Source: a virus
IMG/VR virus record: IMGVR_UViG_3300027909_000021
Reading direction: 5' to 3' (one strand)
DNA: 64,000 nucleotides
In this document: piece by piece, positions 41,084 to 45,844 of the stretch
How positions within the stretch are numbered: position 1 is the first letter of the stretch
How the letters are laid out: each line of letters begins with the position of its first letter
Made by a program: the position numbers and the translations under genes
The notes under the pieces: generated by a model
Databases searched by the model: none
The model's input: only the letters and a program-made list of their open reading frames with translations
Told to the model about the DNA's origin: nothing

Positions 41084-42622
41084 TCACCACCGGGTGAAGT
41101 CGTAACCGACACCCAGGCCCTGATCGTGGCGGTTGTCGTGGCTGTAGACGTACGGATCGACGACCTTGGCCCGTTTACGTTCGTTTAGCATGTGCCACCG
41201 GCAGCCGTGGACCATGCCGTCGAGACGGTCCGGGGATTCCCTGTGCGAGTCCCAGCTGATGAACCCAGTCAACTGGTCTTCGAGGCGCTGGAATCGGCCG
41301 ACGAGATGGAACCGGTGCTGCTGGGAACGCATGGCGACAGGTTCGGCTCGGGTCTTCTTGCCGAGTTTCGCGTCGACTGGTTCCAGCGGTGGACTGGTGT
41401 CCATCGGCGCTTCGCCGAGTTTTTGCAGCTCGATCCATGCGTCGCAGAACACTTGGTGCACCCACGATTTGCCAACGTTCGCCTCGTAGATGACCTTGTG
41501 GGCGCCCCACTTCAACATGACGCGCCAGGCGTGCAGGGCGGCTGGGCGCCCGGCGGCCTGAATGGACTCGTCGGCGAGGACCCACAGATGGTCGTCCACC
41601 GTCCGGGCGACCACTACGACACCCATCTCGTCATGGTTGTCGCCGGATCGTCGCCTGTACGCCGAATCGACCACATTGCCCTGATCGTCTACCTGAGCGG
41701 GGTCCACCCCGACAACGATGGAGATGACCCGCAGATCCGGCGGGATCTGCTCAACCCGAGCCGATTCCAGGTCAGCGGCGGAGAACAGGGCACCGTCTTC
41801 GAGTTCCAAGACTTCGCCGTACAGCTCCTGGCGGCCGATCGCGGTGCCTTCGTAACGCTTCTTCAGCTCCCGGGCGGTGTAGGCGGACAGGGACCGGTTT
41901 TCGAAGGTGGCTCCGCGGGCGATGCGGATGGCGTCGGCGATCTCCAGGTTGTCCGACTGGGACTCGGCGAGGAACCGGCGCAGCAGGGGACTATTGGCCT
42001 TGGGGGTAGTGGTGACAAAGATCCGGGGATGGTCCCCCTCGACGTCCACGCGCAACGCCGGAACGATGCCCTCGTCGTAGGAGGCCATGGCGACCGGCCA
42101 CTTGATGAGTTCGTCCAGCCACGCCGAGGCAAGGTTGTGACCTCGACCAACGTCGGCGTCGTCGGCGCCTTCACAGTGCAGCTTGACCCCGTTGGCGAAC
42201 ATGATCATAGGTCGGGGGCTCTGGCGGTACTTGTAGTCGATGTCGCGCAGCAGGCCGCGGCGGGTCAAGGCGTTCAGAACCCCAGAGTCCCCTTCGACGC
42301 AGATGTTCTTGGCGTCGGCGAGAGTCTCCGCGACGATCAGATGCTCGGTGGGGATACCCCCCTTAGACAGTGGATGCAGGATCGCCCGTTCGACGATCCA
42401 CTCGGCGCCCGCCCGGGTCTTGCCCCAGCCGCGGCCGGCCAGGGCCAGGAAGACGAACCAGTTACCGGGCGGCGGCACCTGCGTCGGCCGTGATTCCCAC
42501 CACCAGGCCCCCCGGACGATTTCCTCCAGGACGTCGGCGTCCAGTGAGTGCAGCCAGGTTTCCCGGTCGGCCTTCGGTAGGCAGGCGAACCGTTCCTTGA
42601 GGCTCATCTTGGTGGTGTCCAT
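41084..42622 (-). CDS. terminase large subunit
   Basis: Walker A GRGWGKTRAG and a C-terminal nuclease-like half. It is the first gene of the late block. Confidence 0.85.
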   Translation of the reverse strand: MDTTKMSLKERFACLPKADRETWLHSLDADVLEEIVRGAWWWESRPTQVPPPGNWFVFLALAGRGWGKTRAGAEWIVERAILHPLSKGGIPTEHLIVAETLADAKNICVEGDSGVLNALTRRGLLRDIDYKYRQSPRPMIMFANGVKLHCEGADDADVGRGHNLASAWLDELIKWPVAMASYDEGIVPALRVDVEGDHPRIFVTTTPKANSPLLRRFLAESQSDNLEIADAIRIARGATFENRSLSAYTARELKKRYEGTAIGRQELYGEVLELEDGALFSAADLESARVEQIPPDLRVISIVVGVDPAQVDDQGNVVDSAYRRRSGDNHDEMGVVVVARTVDDHLWVLADESIQAAGRPAALHAWRVMLKWGAHKVIYEANVGKSWVHQVFCDAWIELQKLGEAPMDTSPPLEPVDAKLGKKTRAEPVAMRSQQHRFHLVGRFQRLEDQLTGFISWDSHRESPDRLDGMVHGCRWHMLNERKRAKVVDPYVYSHDNRHDQGLGVGYDFTRW

Positions 42623-42829
42623 ATGTCCGAAATAGTACGGGCCTGGTATTTATGGGCGCAATGATTCGCAGTTGCAGGCACCCAGGCCCCTGTGTACATT
42701 GGGACTCGCGCAAGATGCGGCGAGGTGGCCAGACGATCCAGTGAGCTGGATTCGCGGGGTGGACAGCTGGTGCCGGGTTGTAGAAGCGCGGGGCCTGGTG
42801 GAGTTCTCTCCTGTTCGCCACCGGGCCAA

Positions 42830-42901
42830 CGGATACAAGGCCCGGGGTGGGCCACCTGCTTTGGGAGCAGGACATGCGGGGTTCGACACCCTGGTATCCG
42901 A
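42830..42901 (+). tRNA. tRNA-Pro(TGG)
   Basis: Canonical 72-nt cloverleaf. Acceptor CGGATAC/GTATCCG, anticodon loop TTTGGGA, T arm CGGGG-TTCGACA-CCCTG. Confidence 0.85.
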
Positions 42902-42906
42902 CGCAA

Positions 42907-42978
42907 CGCGGTGAGGTGCAGCGGTCGCACAGAGGGCTCATAATCCTCCGTTAGCCGGTTCGACTCCGGTCACCGCCA
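42907..42978 (+). tRNA. tRNA-Met(CAT), initiator-like (1:72 C-C mismatch, A73)
   Basis: 72-nt cloverleaf. Anticodon loop CTCATAA and anticodon stem GAGGG/TCCTC. Confidence 0.75.
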
Positions 42979-42998
42979 CGTATTGACAATTTCATAGC

Positions 42999-43136
42999 GG
43001 TGGTCGGTGCATGGAGGTTCGGTTACTTCAAGCTCTATTGGCAGAGCGTTTCTCTTGTAAAGAAATGGTTCTGGGTTCAAGTCCCAGGAAGATCCGGGAA
43101 ACCGGAAACCCCGCGCCTTGCTCTTCCTCGGCCACC
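42999..43136 (+). ncRNA. Y-RNA-like unit 1 (closing helices plus embedded Thr-like cloverleaf)
   Basis: Helix A is 42999-43006/43129-43136 and helix B is 43015-43022/43111-43118. The loops carry GTGCAT and CTCTTCCT. Inside are a D arm, an anticodon arm (CTTGTAA), a T arm and a GAAA hairpin. Confidence 0.55.
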
Positions 43137-43260
43137 ACTCATGCCCCTGTTGAGTCTTCCTGGCACCAGTTTCTAGAGCTGGACCTCATGGCAGTCCTCG
43201 GCTGAAACCTTCTAGGAGGTGCGCGTCGAATCGCGTGAGGGGCTCGAATACAACTACATA

Positions 43261-43379
43261 CGTTCCAGGTGCATTTGGTTTCGGGTACTTCGCGAGTTCG
43301 ATTCTCGCACCCTCCACCACTTGGGGGGTGGCCCATGGCGGGCAATCTAAATCCCGCGACCGCCTCTTCCTCTGGAACG
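43261..43379 (+). ncRNA. Y-RNA-like unit 2 (YrlA-like permuted tRNA mimic)
   Basis: Helix A is 43261-43268/43372-43379 and helix B is 43277-43285/43353-43361. The T arm is GCGAG-TTCGATT-CTCGC. The acceptor-like hairpin is 43309-43329. Confidence 0.6.
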
Positions 43380-43433
43380 CAAGCTTTCAATCGTCTTCCG
43401 GGACTGATTGACTTTTGAAAACTGAATACGTGC

Positions 43434-43507
43434 GCCCCAGGTGCATAGACTCCGGTTACTTCACTATCACGCTGAGAAAACACCGTGGTCGATTCTTCCT
43501 CTGGGGC
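43434..43507 (+). ncRNA. Y-RNA-like unit 3 (short, no tRNA-like domain)
   Basis: Helix A is 43434-43440/43501-43507 and helix B is 43448-43456/43482-43490. It has the same GTGCAT and TTCTTCCT loops. Confidence 0.55.
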
Positions 43508-43517
43508 TCAAGGCACC

Positions 43518-43665
43518 GTTGCCCGGTGCATTCGACTCCGGTTACTTCAATCCTTTTTGGTAGGGGATGTACCTGGTTCGACTCCAGGCTTGGCCACTCC
43601 TGGCCAAGTAGCTCATCGGATAGAGCGCCTAGAAATACACCGTGGTCACCTCTTCCTCGGGCAAC
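43518..43665 (+). ncRNA. Y-RNA-like unit 4 (YrlA-like permuted tRNA mimic)
   Basis: Helix A is 43518-43525/43658-43665 and helix B is 43534-43542/43639-43647. The T arm is CCTGG-TTCGACT-CCAGG. The acceptor hairpin is CTTGGCC-ACTCCT-GGCCAAG, followed by TA and the D arm GCTC-ATCGGATA-GAGC. Confidence 0.65.
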
Positions 43666-43674
43666 ACACACTTG

Positions 43675-43705
43675 GGCCCCGTCTTTGGACGGGGCCTTTC
43701 TGTTT
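43675..43705 (+). terminator. Intrinsic terminator ending the ncRNA cluster
   Basis: GGCCCCGTC-TTTG-GACGGGGCC followed by TTTCTGTTT. Confidence 0.8.
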
Positions 43706-43729
43706 CACAAAGGAGAGGAGATAGACCGA

Positions 43730-43996
43730 ATGCGGGTAACCAGCAAAAGCATGGCTGAACTGATAGACGCTCTTGACCCCAATGGGACCCGGGTGGGAAA
43801 CGTCAGCTTCAGCTACCGAGTGGCCATGGGCAACAGGGTCCTGGAGACGGAGTTCAACTACGGCCGAGCCCTTGGCTTGACCATTACTACCTGGTCCAGC
43901 GGCTGGTTGATTCGTGACGTTGCCGTCCGAATCGAAGGAGTCGAGCGGGACATCTGCAAGGTCCTTTTGCGGATCGATTACTTGTTCGTCGAGTAA
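43730..43996 (+). CDS. hypothetical protein (88 aa)
   Basis: ATG follows AAAGGAGAGGAG; internal start of ORF 43415-43996. Confidence 0.7.
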   Translation: MRVTSKSMAELIDALDPNGTRVGNVSFSYRVAMGNRVLETEFNYGRALGLTITTWSSGWLIRDVAVRIEGVERDICKVLLRIDYLFVE

Positions 43997-44011
43997 AAGG
44001 AGAATAAGAAA

Positions 44012-44221
44012 ATGGACATCAGCAAATCGGTTAGGAAGGCGGTTGAGCTAGGCACTCTCCGATCCCAGATATCTGCTGTGGAAGAGATGCTCAAGGTGGC
44101 TGATGATCAACTGTCCGGCGACCTGACGACCCAGATGGTCCGCAACGTCATGGCCACGGCCAAGGAGGAATACCTTGCCAAGGTCCAGCAGTGGGCCGAC
44201 CAGAACCGAAAGGAGAAGTGA
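44012..44221 (+). CDS. hypothetical coiled-coil protein (69 aa)
   Basis: Track ORF. AAGGAG lies upstream, and the ORF abuts the rsr start. Confidence 0.65.
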   Translation: MDISKSVRKAVELGTLRSQISAVEEMLKVADDQLSGDLTTQMVRNVMATAKEEYLAKVQQWADQNRKEK

Positions 44222-45844
44222 ATGGCAGGCAAGTTCAATAAGCAGAGCAACCTACAGCGCACGAAGCCTTCAACGCCGGTCCGCACGACCTCGGTCGCAC
44301 CGGACACCGTCACCAATGAGGGTGCGGTCGGCTGGTCGCGGGACCCGAAGTCGGAGCTGTTCCTGCTGGGCGTGGCCAACTTCGTCTCCGAGGACACCTT
44401 CTACGAGGACAAACTGCTGCGTGACAAGCGCTACGACATGCTCGTGACGCAGATCGCGGCCAACGATCCGGCGTGGCTGGAGGGCTTCTTCCCGTGGCTG
44501 CGGTTCGAGGCGAACATGCGCTCGGCCCCGGTCATCGGTGCAGCCATCGCGGCCAAGTCCATGCTCGGCACCAAGGCTCCCGGTGGCCGTCGGATCGTCG
44601 CTGGGTCACTGGGTCGCGCGGACGAGCCAGGCGAGTTCCTGGCGTACTGGATCTCGCGGTGGGGTGACAAGCTGCCCAAGCCGGTCAAGCGTGGCCTGGC
44701 CGACGCGATCGTACGGCTCTACACCCAGCGGAACCTGCTCAAGTACGACATCTCGGGTAAGGGTCTGCGGTTCGCCAACGTGATCAACCTGGTGCACCCG
44801 TCCCCGGCTACGCCGGAGCAGCGTGAGCTGTTCAAGTTCGCGCTGGAGCGGGCGTACAAGGACAACGTGGAGATGCCGGAGTCGCTGAAGGTCGCCAAGG
44901 CGGAGAACGCGTTCCGCAAGGAGATCGCGCAGGCGACGTTCGACTGGGATCACTTCTTCGTCCGGACCGACCGGTCCAACGTCCTGAAGGCTGCGGGTCT
45001 GACGTGGCAGGACTTCCTGCCGCGCGTGCCGGAGCGTTATAAGACGGCGGCGTGGGAGACCCTGATCCCGACGATGGGCTTCCAGGCGCTGCTGACGAAC
45101 CTGCGTAACTTCGACGAGGCGGGGATCTCGCCTGCGGCCCGCAAGCTGGTCACCGACCGGCTCTCGGACCCAGACAAGGTCGCCAAGTCGAAGATGTTCC
45201 CGTTCCGGTTCCTGGTGGCGCACCGTAACGTGCGTTCCCTGAACTGGGGTCCGGCGCTGGAGACGGCTCTGGACGCTTCGCTGGCGAACGTGCCAGAGCT
45301 GCCGGGTCGCACGCTGATTCTGGTGGACCGGTCCGGCTCCATGAACTCGACGATCACGTCCACGCCGAACAAAAAGTCTTGGCGTGACGCGGTGGCCGGT
45401 GTCCGGCTGTCGGAGCTGGCGTCGATCTTCGGTTCGGCTCTGGCGCTGCGTAACATCGGCTCGTCCACCCTGGTCGAGTTCGGTGGCACGTCGCGGGAGA
45501 TCCACTTGCGCAAGGGCGATTCGCTGCTGCGTACGGCGAACCAGAAGTTCACCGGCGACATGGGTGGCACGTATCTGGCGATGGCGGCCCGGAGGCACTT
45601 CAAGGGCCACGACCGGGTCATCGTGATCACCGATGAGCAGTACCACGACGGTGCGGCGGGTTCGGTGGTCCCGGCCAACGTCCCGGTCTACACGTTCAAC
45701 CTGGCGGGCTACTCGGCCGCTGGCGGCATCTCGGGTCAGTCCAACCGGCACACCTTCGGTGGCCTGACGGACAAGGCTTTCAAGCTGATCCCGATGCTGG
45801 AGGCGGCACAGTCGCAGCGGTGGCCGTGGGAGACCGAGGAGTAG
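44222..45844 (+). CDS. rsr: Ro60 ortholog: TROVE domain plus vWA domain
   Basis: 540 aa. It has TROVE-like N-terminal repeats, then LLTNLRNF, MFPFRFL, the MIDAS motif LVDRSGSM, GGT and ITDEQ. This is collinear with human Ro60 LLRNLGKM / IHPFHIL / VDVSASM / GGTD / FTDNE. Confidence 0.85.
   Translation: MAGKFNKQSNLQRTKPSTPVRTTSVAPDTVTNEGAVGWSRDPKSELFLLGVANFVSEDTFYEDKLLRDKRYDMLVTQIAANDPAWLEGFFPWLRFEANMRSAPVIGAAIAAKSMLGTKAPGGRRIVAGSLGRADEPGEFLAYWISRWGDKLPKPVKRGLADAIVRLYTQRNLLKYDISGKGLRFANVINLVHPSPATPEQRELFKFALERAYKDNVEMPESLKVAKAENAFRKEIAQATFDWDHFFVRTDRSNVLKAAGLTWQDFLPRVPERYKTAAWETLIPTMGFQALLTNLRNFDEAGISPAARKLVTDRLSDPDKVAKSKMFPFRFLVAHRNVRSLNWGPALETALDASLANVPELPGRTLILVDRSGSMNSTITSTPNKKSWRDAVAGVRLSELASIFGSALALRNIGSSTLVEFGGTSREIHLRKGDSLLRTANQKFTGDMGGTYLAMAARRHFKGHDRVIVITDEQYHDGAAGSVVPANVPVYTFNLAGYSAAGGISGQSNRHTFGGLTDKAFKLIPMLEAAQSQRWPWETEE

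What the first reader, a model, noticed from the sequence alone, without database searches (positions are those of the whole stretch)
42999..43705. Four tandem, covarying Y-RNA-like / tRNA-mimic RNAs directly upstream of a phage Ro60 (TROVE) gene
Four paralogous units share one architecture. (1) The closing helix A differs in sequence in every unit but is always complementary: GGTGGTCG/CGGCCACC, CGTTCCAG/CTGGAACG, GCCCCAG/CTGGGGC, GTTGCCCG/CGGGCAAC. (2) The asymmetric internal loop has invariant 5' GTGCAT and 3' (C/T)TCTTCCT. (3) Helix B shows compensatory changes: GACTCCGGT/ACCGTGGTC in units 3 and 4, GGTTTCGGG/CCCGCGACC in unit 2, GGTTCGG/CCGCGCC in unit 1. Each helix B keeps a T-G pair next to a pyrimidine-pyrimidine mismatch. 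(4) The apical domain varies. Units 2 and 4 carry a canonical T arm, then a 7-bp acceptor-like stem closed by a loop, then a D arm. That is a circularly permuted tRNA whose anticodon stem runs into helices B and A, which is the YrlA layout described for bacterial Y RNAs. Unit 3 has only a short apex (YrlB-like). Unit 1 holds a nearly complete Thr-like cloverleaf. The cluster ends in a clean intrinsic terminator 520 nt upstream of rsr. Several Y RNA genes next to rsr are known in bacteria. A four-member phage set with this loop signature is not something I recognise.
Basis: partly seen in the sequence, partly recalled or inferred. Interest (0 to 1): 0.9.

Follow-up and report, generated by a model that had tools for sequence, protein, structure and literature searches.

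The report
Four phage Y RNAs beside Ro60
An uncultured actinobacterial phage carries four tandem small-RNA genes just upstream of its Ro60 (Rsr) gene that look like bacterial Y RNAs with tRNA-shaped heads: a known kind of RNA, here with an unusual protein-binding loop sequence and one unusual head design.

Summary
At 42999-43665 (+) there are four units with one plan: a variable closing helix A, an internal loop (5' GUGCAU, 3' YUCUUCCU), helix B with a conserved U-G pair and Y-Y mismatch, the motif UACUUC, and a variable apex. A strong terminator follows. A TROVE/vWA Rsr gene starts 517 nt after it.

Covariation is real. Across the four paralogs and their four orthologs in one related viral contig, 97% of cells pair and 10 of 17 pairs change on both sides. 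Ortholog pairs show 15 compensatory changes and no broken pair.

The same plan sits upstream of rsr in about 170 actinobacterial and actinophage loci: 1-4 units per bacterial locus, and up to about 7 in viral contigs. These are therefore divergent YrlA/YrlB-type Y RNAs. Tandem arrays are common, though unannotated or mis-called as tRNAs.

Three things are specific to this lineage:
- the loop code GUGCAU/CUCUUCCU replaces GUGCG(A/C)AG/YYGAUCU, so the CGAA core is missing;
- unit 1 has a non-permuted tRNA-Thr-like cloverleaf head;
- a possible fifth cloverleaf-like RNA lies in the U1-U2 spacer.

Expression and Rsr binding are untested. Verdict: new variant of a known kind, moderate interest.

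The parts
42830..42977 (+). tRNA-Pro(UGG) at 42830-42902 and tRNA-Met(CAU) at 42908-42977, 21 nt upstream of unit 1. Probably the same transcription unit (inferred).
   Evidence: ARAGORN. Rfam tRNA 26.9 and 46.2 bits. L003 has the tRNA-Met in the same place.
42999..43136 (+). Unit 1 (138 nt).
- Helix A: GGUGGUCG/CGGCCACC
- Loops: 5' GUGCAU, 3' GCUCUUCCU
- Helix B: GAGGUUCGG/CCGCGCCUU
- Head: a NON-permuted tRNA-Thr(UGU)-like cloverleaf at 43026-43091 (4-bp acceptor-like stem CUUC/GAAG, A at position 8), plus a GAAA-tetraloop hairpin at 43094-43105
   Evidence: Against the L003 ortholog (1869-2004): 3 compensatory and 1 one-sided change, 0 broken pairs.
43143..43243 (+). Spacer element: a possible fifth, cloverleaf-like RNA with no Rsr-type loop. 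It has a 6-bp closing stem GCCCCU/AGGGGC, a long irregular arm, a 5-bp arm, and a T-arm-like hairpin GCGCG-UCGAAU-CGCGU next to the 3' strand of the closing stem.
   Evidence: RNAfold. L003 2011-2130 is only about 36% identical, yet it folds into the same kind of 4-way junction within 0.6 kcal/mol of its minimum free energy. No ARAGORN or Rfam call. Status unresolved.
43261..43379 (+). Unit 2 (119 nt).
- Helix A: CGUUCCAG/CUGGAACG
- Head: a circularly permuted tRNA
  - T arm at 43292-43308
  - 7-bp acceptor-like stem ACCCUCC/GGGGGGU (43309-43315 / 43323-43329), closed by the loop ACCACUU
  - reduced D arm at 43331-43343
   Evidence: Rfam YrlA full-length match, 16.4 bits only. CM R1 63.9 bits, but this is a training sequence. 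Against L003 2149-2264: helix A U-A becomes C-G, 0 broken pairs.
43434..43507 (+). Unit 3 (74 nt).
- Helix A: GCCCCAG/CUGGGGC
- Helix B: GACUCCGGU/ACCGUGGUC
- Head: a short 31-nt apex with no tRNA features (YrlB-like)
   Evidence: The ortholog L003 2291-2400 keeps the core (3 compensatory changes, 0 broken pairs) but has a 68-nt apex.
43518..43665 (+). Unit 4 (148 nt).
- Helix A: GUUGCCCG/CGGGCAAC
- Helix B: GACUCCGGU/ACCGUGGUC
- Head: a YrlA-type permuted tRNA with a variable-arm hairpin, T arm CCUGG-UUCGACU-CCAGG, 7-bp acceptor-like stem CUUGGCC/GGCCAAG closed by a loop, and D arm GCUC-AUCGGAUA-GAGC
   Evidence: Rfam YrlA 33 bits, E 4.4e-5, at 43565-43629. Folds. Against L003 2411-2556: 8 compensatory and 2 one-sided changes, 0 broken pairs.
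43674..43707 (+). Intrinsic terminator that ends the RNA cluster: a 10-bp stem with 8 G-C pairs, a 4-nt loop, and a U tract.
   Evidence: Conserved in L003.
43730..44221 (+). Two small ORFs between the array and rsr: 88 aa at 43730-43996 and 69 aa at 44012-44221. The second ends directly at the rsr start codon and is conserved in L003. The first is not.
   Evidence: No Pfam, NCBIfam or PHROG match.
44222..45844 (+). Rsr/Ro60 ortholog (540 aa; TROVE plus vWA), the presumed protein partner of the four RNAs.
   Evidence: Pfam TROVE E 4e-16, weak VWA_2 match. PHROG 850 'RNA-binding protein', E 7e-41. Closest solved structure: Thermus phage phiLo Ro60, PDB 9KOP/9L5Y, E 1.7e-22. 48% identical to Streptomyces phage BRock Rsr and 76% to the L003 Rsr.

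Best explanation
The four units are genes for phage Y RNAs, divergent relatives of the bacterial YrlA/YrlB family.

Inferred steps:
1. They are transcribed as one precursor, probably together with the tRNA-Pro and tRNA-Met just upstream. The transcript ends at the terminator at 43674-43707.
2. The precursor is cut into RNAs of about 75-150 nt.
3. Each RNA uses the shared module to bind the outer surface of the ring-shaped phage Rsr protein encoded 0.5 kb downstream. That module is helix A, the GUGCAU/YUCUUCCU internal loop, helix B with its U-G pair and Y-Y mismatch, and UACUUC.
4. The variable apex is the effector end. Three of the four heads can form a tRNA elbow (GG in the D loop, UUC in the T loop). 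By analogy with characterised Y RNAs, they would tether Rsr to tRNA-binding or RNA-degrading host proteins such as PNPase, or gate access of other RNAs to the Rsr ring.
5. U2 and U4 have 7-bp acceptor-like stems. Like M. smegmatis YrlA, they may be nicked by RNase P.

Shown here: the architecture, its covariation, its conservation next to rsr, and its similarity to YrlA. Inferred: transcription, processing, Rsr binding and effector tethering.
For: - Architecture and paralog/ortholog covariation.
- Partner gene is TROVE/vWA and is related to phiLo Ro60, which binds two upstream Y-like RNAs (PMC12135203).
- The same unit plan lies immediately upstream of rsr on the same strand in Streptomyces phages BRock (4 units) and GiJojo (5), in pSt2308, Alone3, Quantum (3), Arthrobacter phage Atuin, and Gordonia phages VanLee and Neville. 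It is also found in 80 actinobacterial rsr loci (1-4 units, mode 2) and 79 IMG/VR loci (0-7).
- A covariance model built only from the cores of the window and L003 units finds full-length matches upstream of rsr in Streptomyces (29.6 bits, E 8e-6), Micromonospora, BRock, Neville and other phages. It finds nothing else significant in the 64 kb window.
- Rfam YrlA gives specific sub-threshold hits to the U4 head (33 bits, E 4e-5) and to homologous units in nine phage loci (28-47 bits, several spanning model positions 1-114).
- The published YrlA criteria are: within 4 kb of rsr on the same strand; YUAY before the V/T region; T, acceptor-stem-loop and D arms in permuted order (PMC4201824). All are met by U2 and U4.
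- M. smegmatis has YrlA plus YrlB upstream of rsr, made from one precursor, and its 7-bp acceptor stem is cut by RNase P.
Against: - There is no expression or binding data.
- No unit reaches the Rfam YrlA gathering score (69 bits).
- The GNCGAAN0-1G / CGAA motif is absent. That motif was proposed as the Ro60 contact, and its mutation weakens phiLo Ro60 binding 3-4 fold. Here the sequence is GUGCAU.
- Of the phiLo Ro60 RNA-contact residues, only K141/K142 align to basic residues (K156/R157) in this Rsr, and that alignment has low identity.
- A terminator and two ORFs separate the array from rsr.
- Only one orthologous locus exists (L003, re-found as L211, L291 and L306), so lineage-specific covariation rests on two genomes plus the paralogs.
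Confidence: 0.8

Rival explanations
1. The units are tRNA-shaped decoys or sponges that act without Rsr. For example, they could soak up host anticodon nucleases, tRNA-modifying enzymes or RNase P during infection. On this view the shared stem/loop/stem module is only a stabilising or processing scaffold.
For: - Three heads are good tRNA mimics, and U1 keeps a complete 7-nt anticodon loop CUUGUAA that is identical in L003.
- A similar unit in L275 carries a Cys (GCA) anticodon loop.
- The array lies inside a tRNA-rich region with 22 tRNA genes.
- The CGAA Ro60 motif is missing.
Against: - U3 has no tRNA-like head yet keeps the full conserved core.
- The core, not the head, is what is conserved across about 170 loci, and it is always next to rsr on the same strand.
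- A decoy role does not explain sequence invariance in the internal loop.
Confidence: 0.08
2. The units act in cis as processing or regulatory structures of a tRNA/rsr operon transcript (leader, attenuator or RNase platform), not as stable trans-acting RNAs.
For: They lie between tRNA genes and rsr with short spacers. A strong terminator directly follows them and could be regulated.
Against: - There are four independent, closed, self-contained folds, each with its own covarying closing helix.
- The homologous M. smegmatis RNAs are stable and bound by Rsr.
- No alternative terminator/antiterminator pairing is evident. The terminator is separated from U4 by 8 nt and is conserved as a simple hairpin.
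Confidence: 0.06
3. The units are decaying tRNA pseudogenes or rearranged tRNA gene fragments with no function of their own.
For: ARAGORN and annotators call tRNAs inside homologous units: GiJojo tRNA-Arg(cct), Alone3 tRNA-Ser(gct), VanLee tRNA-Arg(tct). The U1 head scores as tRNA.
Against: - Between two phages whose Rsr proteins are 76% identical there are 15 compensatory changes and 0 broken pairs.
- The non-tRNA module is invariant in all units.
- The permuted arm order is conserved.
- Those tRNA calls start at unit positions 3-8, so they misread helix A as an acceptor stem.
Confidence: 0.02

Closest known systems
YrlA / YrlB Y RNAs of bacteria (Rfam RF02553; S. Typhimurium and M. smegmatis; Chen et al. 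[quoted passage not shown]
   Same: - Encoded next to rsr on the same strand.
- Modular: a closing stem and internal loop (Ro60 module) plus an effector head.
- U2 and U4 heads are circularly permuted tRNAs (V region, T arm, acceptor stem closed by a loop, D arm), preceded by YUAY (here UUAC or GUAC).
- The U4 D-arm and T-arm sequences match the YrlA consensus.
- 7-bp acceptor-like stems, as in M. smegmatis YrlA.
- A short YrlB-like member (U3).
- Several members in tandem upstream of rsr.
   Different: - The loop reads GUGCAU / YUCUUCCU. The Rfam consensus has CGAAUGC / ACUUGUC, and actinobacterial units have GUGCG(A/C)AG / YYGAUCU. The CGAA core is absent.
- Rfam scores are 16-33 bits against a gathering score of 69.
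- There are four members plus a possible fifth element.
- One member (U1) has a non-permuted tRNA head.
Deinococcus radiodurans Yrn1 (and Yrn2)
   Same: U1 resembles Yrn1 in arm order: D-like arm, anticodon-like arm, then T arm. The tRNA-like part therefore joins the Ro60-binding stem through its acceptor side rather than its anticodon side (description). Several ncRNAs lie near rsr.
   Different: U1 has a complete cloverleaf with a 7-nt anticodon loop and a variable loop. Yrn1 has a 6-nt loop and no V arm. U1 shares its Ro60 module with the YrlA-type units of the same array. No sequence similarity to Yrn1 was tested.
Thermus phage phiLo Yrl1/Yrl2 with phiRo60 (PMC12135203; PDB 9KOP, 9L5Y)
   Same: A phage-encoded Ro60 with several Y-like RNAs directly upstream. 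phiRo60 is the closest solved relative of this Rsr (E 1.7e-22). The RNA module is stem / bulge / stem.
   Different: phiLo has two RNAs, defined by a CGAA motif and with no tRNA-like head described. This phage has four, tRNA-like and without CGAA. Binding and PNPase recruitment were shown for phiLo and have not been tested here.
Unannotated Y-RNA arrays of Streptomyces, Gordonia and Arthrobacter phages and of actinobacterial chromosomes
   Same: Same unit plan: helix A, RUGC loop, helix B, UUACUUC, apex, helix B', 3' loop, helix A'. Same position relative to rsr. Same mix of short and YrlA-type members. 1-7 units per locus.
   Different: Each lineage has its own loop code. Most bacteria and viral contigs use GUGCG(A/C)AG + YYGAUCU, the BRock group uses GAUGCGUAG + UUUUCUAG, and the Quantum group uses GUGCGA + UUGGUUAAC. 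The GUGCAU + CUCUUCCU pair was found only in the window and in L003.
tmRNA and permuted tRNA genes
   Same: The U2 acceptor-like stem in the window has G3-U70, A73 and an encoded CCA, like tRNA-Ala and tmRNA (local Rfam tmRNA 3'-end match). The arm order is circularly permuted.
   Different: There is no mRNA-like part and no anticodon loop in U2 or U4. The G-U pair and the CCA are not conserved in L003. No evidence of circularisation or of a free 3' end.

Membership tests
YrlA-type bacterial/phage Y RNA (criteria of Chen et al. 2014) | Encoded within about 4 kb of a Ro60/Rsr (TROVE) gene, on the same strand | tested here: met
   The units lie at 42999-43665 (+) and rsr at 44222-45844 (+)..
YrlA-type bacterial/phage Y RNA (criteria of Chen et al. 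2014) | GNCGAAN0-1G motif (CGAA core) near the 5' end, the proposed Ro60 contact | tested here: not met
   All four units read (C/A)GGUGCAU in that place, and L003 does the same. Related actinobacterial units read GUGCGAAG or GUGCGCAG. The motif here is therefore a two-base variant of the host-type motif and lacks CGAA.
YrlA-type bacterial/phage Y RNA (criteria of Chen et al. 2014) | Conserved YUAY at the start of the V region, then T arm, acceptor-like stem-loop and D arm (a circularly permuted tRNA) | tested here: met
   - U2 and U4: met (UUAC or GUAC, then T, acceptor stem-loop and D arms).
- U1: not met. It has the motif, but its tRNA is not permuted.
- U3: not met. It has no tRNA-like head and is YrlB-like.
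YrlA-type bacterial/phage Y RNA (criteria of Chen et al. 2014) | Nucleotides for the tRNA elbow and tertiary contacts (G18 G19, U54 U55 C56, U8/A14, 15:48 Levitt pair) | tested here: inconclusive
   Read from the sequence only.
- U4 has UAGCUC-AUCGGAUA-GAGC and UUCGACU. Its 15:48 pair would be U:A in the window and A:U in L003.
- U2 has a 5-nt D loop, AUGGC.
- U1 has A instead of U8.
No 3D test was possible.
Rfam RF02553 (YrlA) | Covariance-model score at or above the gathering threshold (69 bits) | tested here: not met
   - U4 head: 33 bits (E 4.4e-5).
- U2, full length: 16.4 bits.
- No hit at gathering level.
- Homologous units in nine phage loci score 28-47 bits.
- Twenty actinobacterial rsr loci give no YrlA hit at gathering level either.
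Y RNA in the functional sense | Stable small RNA bound by Ro60/Rsr in vivo | not testable with these tools
   Needs Northern blots or RNA-seq and Rsr immunoprecipitation or a gel-shift assay.
Canonical tRNA (for the U1 head) | 7-bp acceptor stem with a free 3' end, U8, and a full cloverleaf | tested here: not met
   - The cloverleaf and the 7-nt anticodon loop (UGU) are present: Rfam tRNA 44.6 bits over model positions 4-67 only.
- The acceptor-like stem has 4 bp (5 in L003).
- Position 8 is A.
- Both ends run on into helix B.
- Default ARAGORN does not call it in the window.
tmRNA / tRNA-Ala-like acceptor (for the U2 head) | G3-U70, A73 and a CCA end, conserved | tested here: not met
   Present in the window (ACCCUCC-ACCA / GGGGGGU). 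L003 has G3-C70 and ACUCAU. There is no free 3' end without cleavage.

The most novel reading that the evidence does not exclude
This phage lineage may have re-coded the Ro60/Y RNA recognition interface. Both strands of the internal loop differ: GUGCAU/CUCUUCCU here, against GUGCG(A/C)AG/YYGAUCU in actinobacterial hosts and most phages. That could make its Rsr-Y RNA particles orthogonal to the host's. The lineage would then deploy a toolkit of interchangeable tRNA-shaped heads on that private handle:
- permuted tRNAs that RNase P can nick;
- a non-permuted tRNA-Thr mimic with a real anticodon loop;
- a minimal hairpin;
- perhaps a handle-less cloverleaf.
These heads would steer Rsr and a host nuclease toward, or shield it from, different tRNA-related targets during infection. 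In the window, U2 could even become an alanine-acceptor-like nicked RNA (G3-U70, A73, encoded CCA).
Probability: 0.15. Interest if true: 0.7.

Novelty: new variant of a known kind. Interest (0 to 1): 0.45.

Why it matters
Y RNAs are poorly understood. Their Ro60-binding code and the role of the tRNA-like head are still open questions, and only a few bacterial and one phage system have been studied experimentally.

This locus, together with the roughly 170 related loci found around it, offers three things:
- Y RNA genes in actinobacteria and their phages usually come as tandem sets built on one handle with swappable heads.
- There are natural loop-code variants, including one that lacks the CGAA core thought to be needed for Ro60 binding. 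These can be used directly in binding-specificity experiments.
- A member whose head is an ordinary (non-permuted) tRNA cloverleaf links the YrlA and Yrn1 designs in a single array.

It also has a practical use: phage annotation pipelines currently mis-call these RNAs as tRNAs or as tiny ORFs.

Tried and rejected
- Megablast of the region against GenBank phages found no match. The phage is new; its TerL is at most 36% identical to known actinophage proteins.
- The loose pattern scan of IMG/VR, GGTGCAT-N5-14-GKTACTTC, gave only single hits on unrelated contigs, which I take as chance matches. Loci L004-L123 were ignored.
- The tighter scan returned 41 stretches. Only the L003 contig had more than one match. 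I folded seven of the single matches, and none shows the unit fold or the CUUCCU loop, so I take them as chance matches.
- Close-relative protein scans of IMG/VR and of the metagenomes found only the one contig (L003 = L211 = L291 = L306). R-scape-type statistics within the lineage are therefore not possible.
- U2 as a tmRNA-like or alanine-accepting RNA is weakened, because the G3-U70 pair and the CCA are absent from L003.
- Permuted tRNA genes that mature into real tRNAs: rejected. U2 and U4 have no anticodon loop, and helix B runs on into helix A.
- The sigma-70 promoter scan found nothing in 42500-44300. This is uninformative for a high-GC actinophage.
- The spacer element could not be aligned between the two phages (36% identity; the alifold consensus was meaningless). 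Only single-sequence and constrained folds support a shared cloverleaf shape.
- Mapping the phiLo Ro60 RNA-contact residues gave one conserved basic pair only, and the alignment has too low an identity to bear weight.
- The supplementary tables of Chen et al. 2014 (list of phage YrlA RNAs) and the two Wolin-lab reviews are not held. I could not check whether multi-copy phage arrays were tabulated there.
Full report
OBSERVATION

The region was read directly. Four units lie on the + strand:
- U1: 42999-43136
- U2: 43261-43379
- U3: 43434-43507
- U4: 43518-43665

Each has the same plan:
- an 8-bp closing helix A whose sequence differs in every unit;
- an invariant G-U closing pair;
- an internal loop with 5' GUGCAU and 3' (C/U)UCUUCCU;
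- helix B of 8-10 bp, with an invariant CGG/CCG end, a U-G pair and a pyrimidine-pyrimidine mismatch;
- the motif (U/G)UACUUC;
- a variable apex.

I took helix A purely from motif-anchored positions (the 8 nt before GTGCAT and the 8 nt after CTTCCT). This gives 8, 8, 7 and 8 of 8 pairs. The pattern GGTGCAT-N5-30-TACTTC occurs four times in the window, all here, against 0.05 expected. RNAfold of each unit alone returns exactly this architecture, with z-scores of -1.7 to -3.1. A 10-bp G+C-rich terminator with a U tract follows at 43674-43707.

The ORF at 44222-45844 encodes a 540-aa TROVE protein with a weak vWA match. It belongs to PHROG 850, 'RNA-binding protein'. Its closest solved relative is the Ro60 of Thermus phage phiLo (E 1.7e-22).

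The window is phage DNA. A T4-type large terminase lies at 41084-42622, there are 22 tRNA genes, and the only close relative is an IMG/VR viral contig.

HEADS

- U1 encloses a tRNA-like cloverleaf in normal arm order (D arm, anticodon arm with loop CUUGUAA, 5-nt variable loop, T arm). Rfam tRNA scores 44.6 bits over model positions 4-67. Its acceptor-like stem is only CUUC/GAAG, position 8 is A, and a GAAA-tetraloop hairpin follows before the chain returns to helix B.
- U2 and U4 have the YrlA layout: UACUUC, a variable arm (U4 only), a T arm, a 7-bp acceptor-like stem closed by a loop, then a D arm. The U4 head matches the Rfam YrlA consensus across T, acceptor and D (33 bits, E 4.4e-5). U2 gives a weak full-length match (16.4 bits).
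- U3 has a 31-nt apex with no tRNA features.

COMPARATIVE EVIDENCE, CLOSE RANGE

One related contig exists: IMGVR_UViG_3300045391_003830, locus L003. Its Rsr is 76% identical. It has the same order: tRNA-Met, U1, spacer element, U2, U3, U4, terminator, small ORFs, rsr. Ortholog pairs give the following:

| Unit | Compensatory changes | One-sided changes | Broken pairs |
|---|---|---|---|
| U1 | 3 | 1 | 0 |
| U2 | 1 | 1 | 0 |
| U3 | 3 | 1 | 0 |
| U4 | 8 | 2 | 0 |

In U4 the whole acceptor-like stem is replaced by a different complementary sequence. In U1 the anticodon stem, the T stem and the tetraloop hairpin each carry a compensatory change, while the anticodon loop is unchanged.

I also made a core alignment of the eight units, defined by sequence anchors only, with the apex replaced by a linker (A2). 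On this alignment:
- 97.1% of cells pair, against 76.3% in shuffles;
- 10 of 17 pairs change on both sides;
- the covariation score is 0.639 against 0.240 (0 of 500 shuffles reach it);
- slid controls pair at 36-51%.

COMPARATIVE EVIDENCE, LONG RANGE

The best GenBank phage relatives of the Rsr protein are Streptomyces phages BRock (48%), GiJojo, pSt2308, Alone3 and LuckySocke, then Arthrobacter phage Atuin, the Streptomyces Quantum-type phages, and Gordonia phages VanLee and Neville.

In all the ones I fetched, the non-coding stretch just upstream of rsr holds tandem units of the same plan, with lineage-specific loop sequences:
- BRock has four and GiJojo five: GAUGCG(U/C/A)AG ... UUACUUC ... 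UUUU(U)CUAG.
- Quantum has three: GUGCGA ... UUGGUUAAC.

A profile scan then fetched 80 actinobacterial rsr loci (Streptomyces, Kitasatospora, Micromonospora, Actinomadura and others) and 79 further IMG/VR loci. A simple scanner looked for RUGC, N4-18, NUACUUC and an adjacent closing helix of at least 6 bp. It found units upstream of rsr nearly everywhere:
- Bacteria: 5, 44, 28 and 3 loci with 1, 2, 3 and 4 units.
- Viral contigs: 0-7 units, mode 2.
- Unit lengths are bimodal, about 70-90 nt and about 130-150 nt. These correspond to short YrlB-like and long YrlA-like members.
- The dominant loop code is GUGCG(A/C)AG with YYGAUCU.
- GUGCAU with CUCUUCCU occurs only in the window and in L003.

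A covariance model built only from the cores of the window and L003 units (R1) gives full-length matches to units upstream of rsr in Streptomyces (29.6 bits, E 8e-6; 24.6 bits), Micromonospora, BRock, Neville, pSt2308 and two IMG/VR phages. It finds nothing else significant in the 64 kb window. Rfam YrlA hits the long units of nine phage loci at 28-47 bits, several over the whole model. It never reaches the gathering score, and it does not reach it in 20 bacterial loci either.

WHAT IT IS

Chen et al. 2014 (PMC4201824) defined YrlA RNAs by:
- position (within 4 kb of rsr, same strand);
- a GNCGAAN0-1G motif near the 5' end;
- YUAY before the V region;
- a permuted tRNA head (T, acceptor stem-loop, D).

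They found such RNAs in 254 bacteria and 22 phages. They also showed that M. smegmatis has YrlA and YrlB upstream of rsr, made from one precursor, both bound by Rsr, and that its 7-bp acceptor stem is cut by RNase P and receives CCA. Thermus phage phiLo has two Y-like RNAs upstream of its Ro60, and these bind it and host PNPase (PMC12135203).

The four units fit this family in position, modular design, YUAY and (for U2 and U4) head layout. They fail the CGAA motif and the Rfam threshold. I therefore file them as divergent YrlA/YrlB-type Y RNAs, meaning a variant rather than a canonical member.

HOW IT MOST LIKELY WORKS

Everything here is inferred unless marked otherwise.
1. One precursor is transcribed from the intergenic region downstream of the divergently oriented terminase gene. 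It runs through tRNA-Pro and tRNA-Met and ends at the terminator.
2. Processing yields four RNAs, perhaps five.
3. The invariant handle docks on the phage Rsr ring.
4. The heads, three of which can form a tRNA elbow, recruit or block tRNA-binding or RNA-degrading host factors. PNPase is the precedent.
5. U2 and U4 may be nicked by RNase P, as in M. smegmatis.

What is shown is the conserved handle. Both loop strands differ from the host-type code, which suggests co-evolution with the protein. The only protein-side hint is that phiLo contact residues K141/K142 align with K156/R157, and K156 is nearly invariant in the phage Rsr alignment. That alignment has low identity.

RIVALS

- Rsr-independent tRNA decoys. 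These would not explain U3, or why the handle rather than the head is the conserved part next to rsr.
- Cis-acting leader or processing structures. The units are four closed, independently covarying folds, and the homologous RNAs are known to be stable.
- tRNA pseudogenes. There are 15 compensatory changes and no broken pair. The tRNA calls inside homologous units start at unit positions 3-8, so they misread helix A as an acceptor stem.

WHAT IS NEW

- The loop code lacks CGAA.
- The U1 design is a complete, non-permuted tRNA-Thr-like cloverleaf plus a GNRA hairpin on a YrlA-type handle. This echoes the Yrn1 arm order described for Deinococcus. It recurs with a Cys anticodon loop in a different phage lineage (L275 1698-1833).
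- A cloverleaf-like element without a handle lies in the U1-U2 spacer. It is conserved in shape but not in sequence and remains unresolved.
- More generally, tandem Y RNA sets are the rule in actinobacteria and their phages, and they are largely unannotated. I found no paper in the held library that describes them beyond YrlA/YrlB.

The four-member count itself is not exceptional.

VERDICT

This is a new variant of a known kind.

Noticed in passing
window 43143-43243 (L003 2011-2130): The 124-nt spacer between U1 and U2 holds a strongly folded, cloverleaf-like element: a closing stem, a long arm, a 5-bp arm, and a T-arm-like hairpin that abuts the 3' strand of the closing stem. It lacks the Rsr-type loop. 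The L003 counterpart is about 36% identical but can adopt the same 4-way junction. The flanks ACTCAYG and ACAACTACATACG are conserved.
   Followed up: partly
window 43309-43329: The acceptor-like stem of U2 carries G3-U70, A73 and an encoded CCA, which is the tRNA-Ala/tmRNA acceptor signature. Rfam gives a local match to the tmRNA 3' end. L003 has G-C and ACUCAU instead, so the feature is not conserved.
   Followed up: yes
L002 3763-3837; L125 2277-2350; L128 2138-2209; L129 1876-2286: GenBank records of actinophages annotate tRNAs inside Y-RNA-like units upstream of rsr: GiJojo tRNA-Arg(cct), Alone3 tRNA-Ser(gct), VanLee tRNA-Arg(tct). Neville has tiny CDS (gp88-90) over such units. ARAGORN reproduces these tRNA calls by reading helix A as an acceptor stem.
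   Followed up: partly
L275 1698-1833: An IMG/VR phage from another lineage (loop AUGCGUAG / UCUUUCU) has a U1-like unit: a non-permuted tRNA-like head with anticodon loop CUGCAAA (Cys) plus a GCAA-tetraloop hairpin.
   Followed up: partly
window 44012-44221 and 43730-43996: A 69-aa ORF ends directly at the rsr start codon and is conserved in L003 (2800-2997). The 88-aa ORF before it is replaced by a different small ORF in L003. Neither has any family match.
   Followed up: partly
L001 6073-6236; L125 4470-4702: Sub-threshold Rfam manA-RNA matches (49.7 and 47.8 bits; gathering score 55.2) lie between tRNA-Lys genes downstream of rsr in Streptomyces phages BRock and Alone3.
   Followed up: no
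L272 about 1550-2453: A second viral contig from the same metagenome as L003 (3300045391) carries about 6-7 tandem units upstream of its rsr, the largest array seen.
   Followed up: no
window 42830-42902: The tRNA-Pro(UGG) just upstream of the array scores only 26.9 bits with Rfam tRNA (gathering score 29), although ARAGORN calls it.
   Followed up: no
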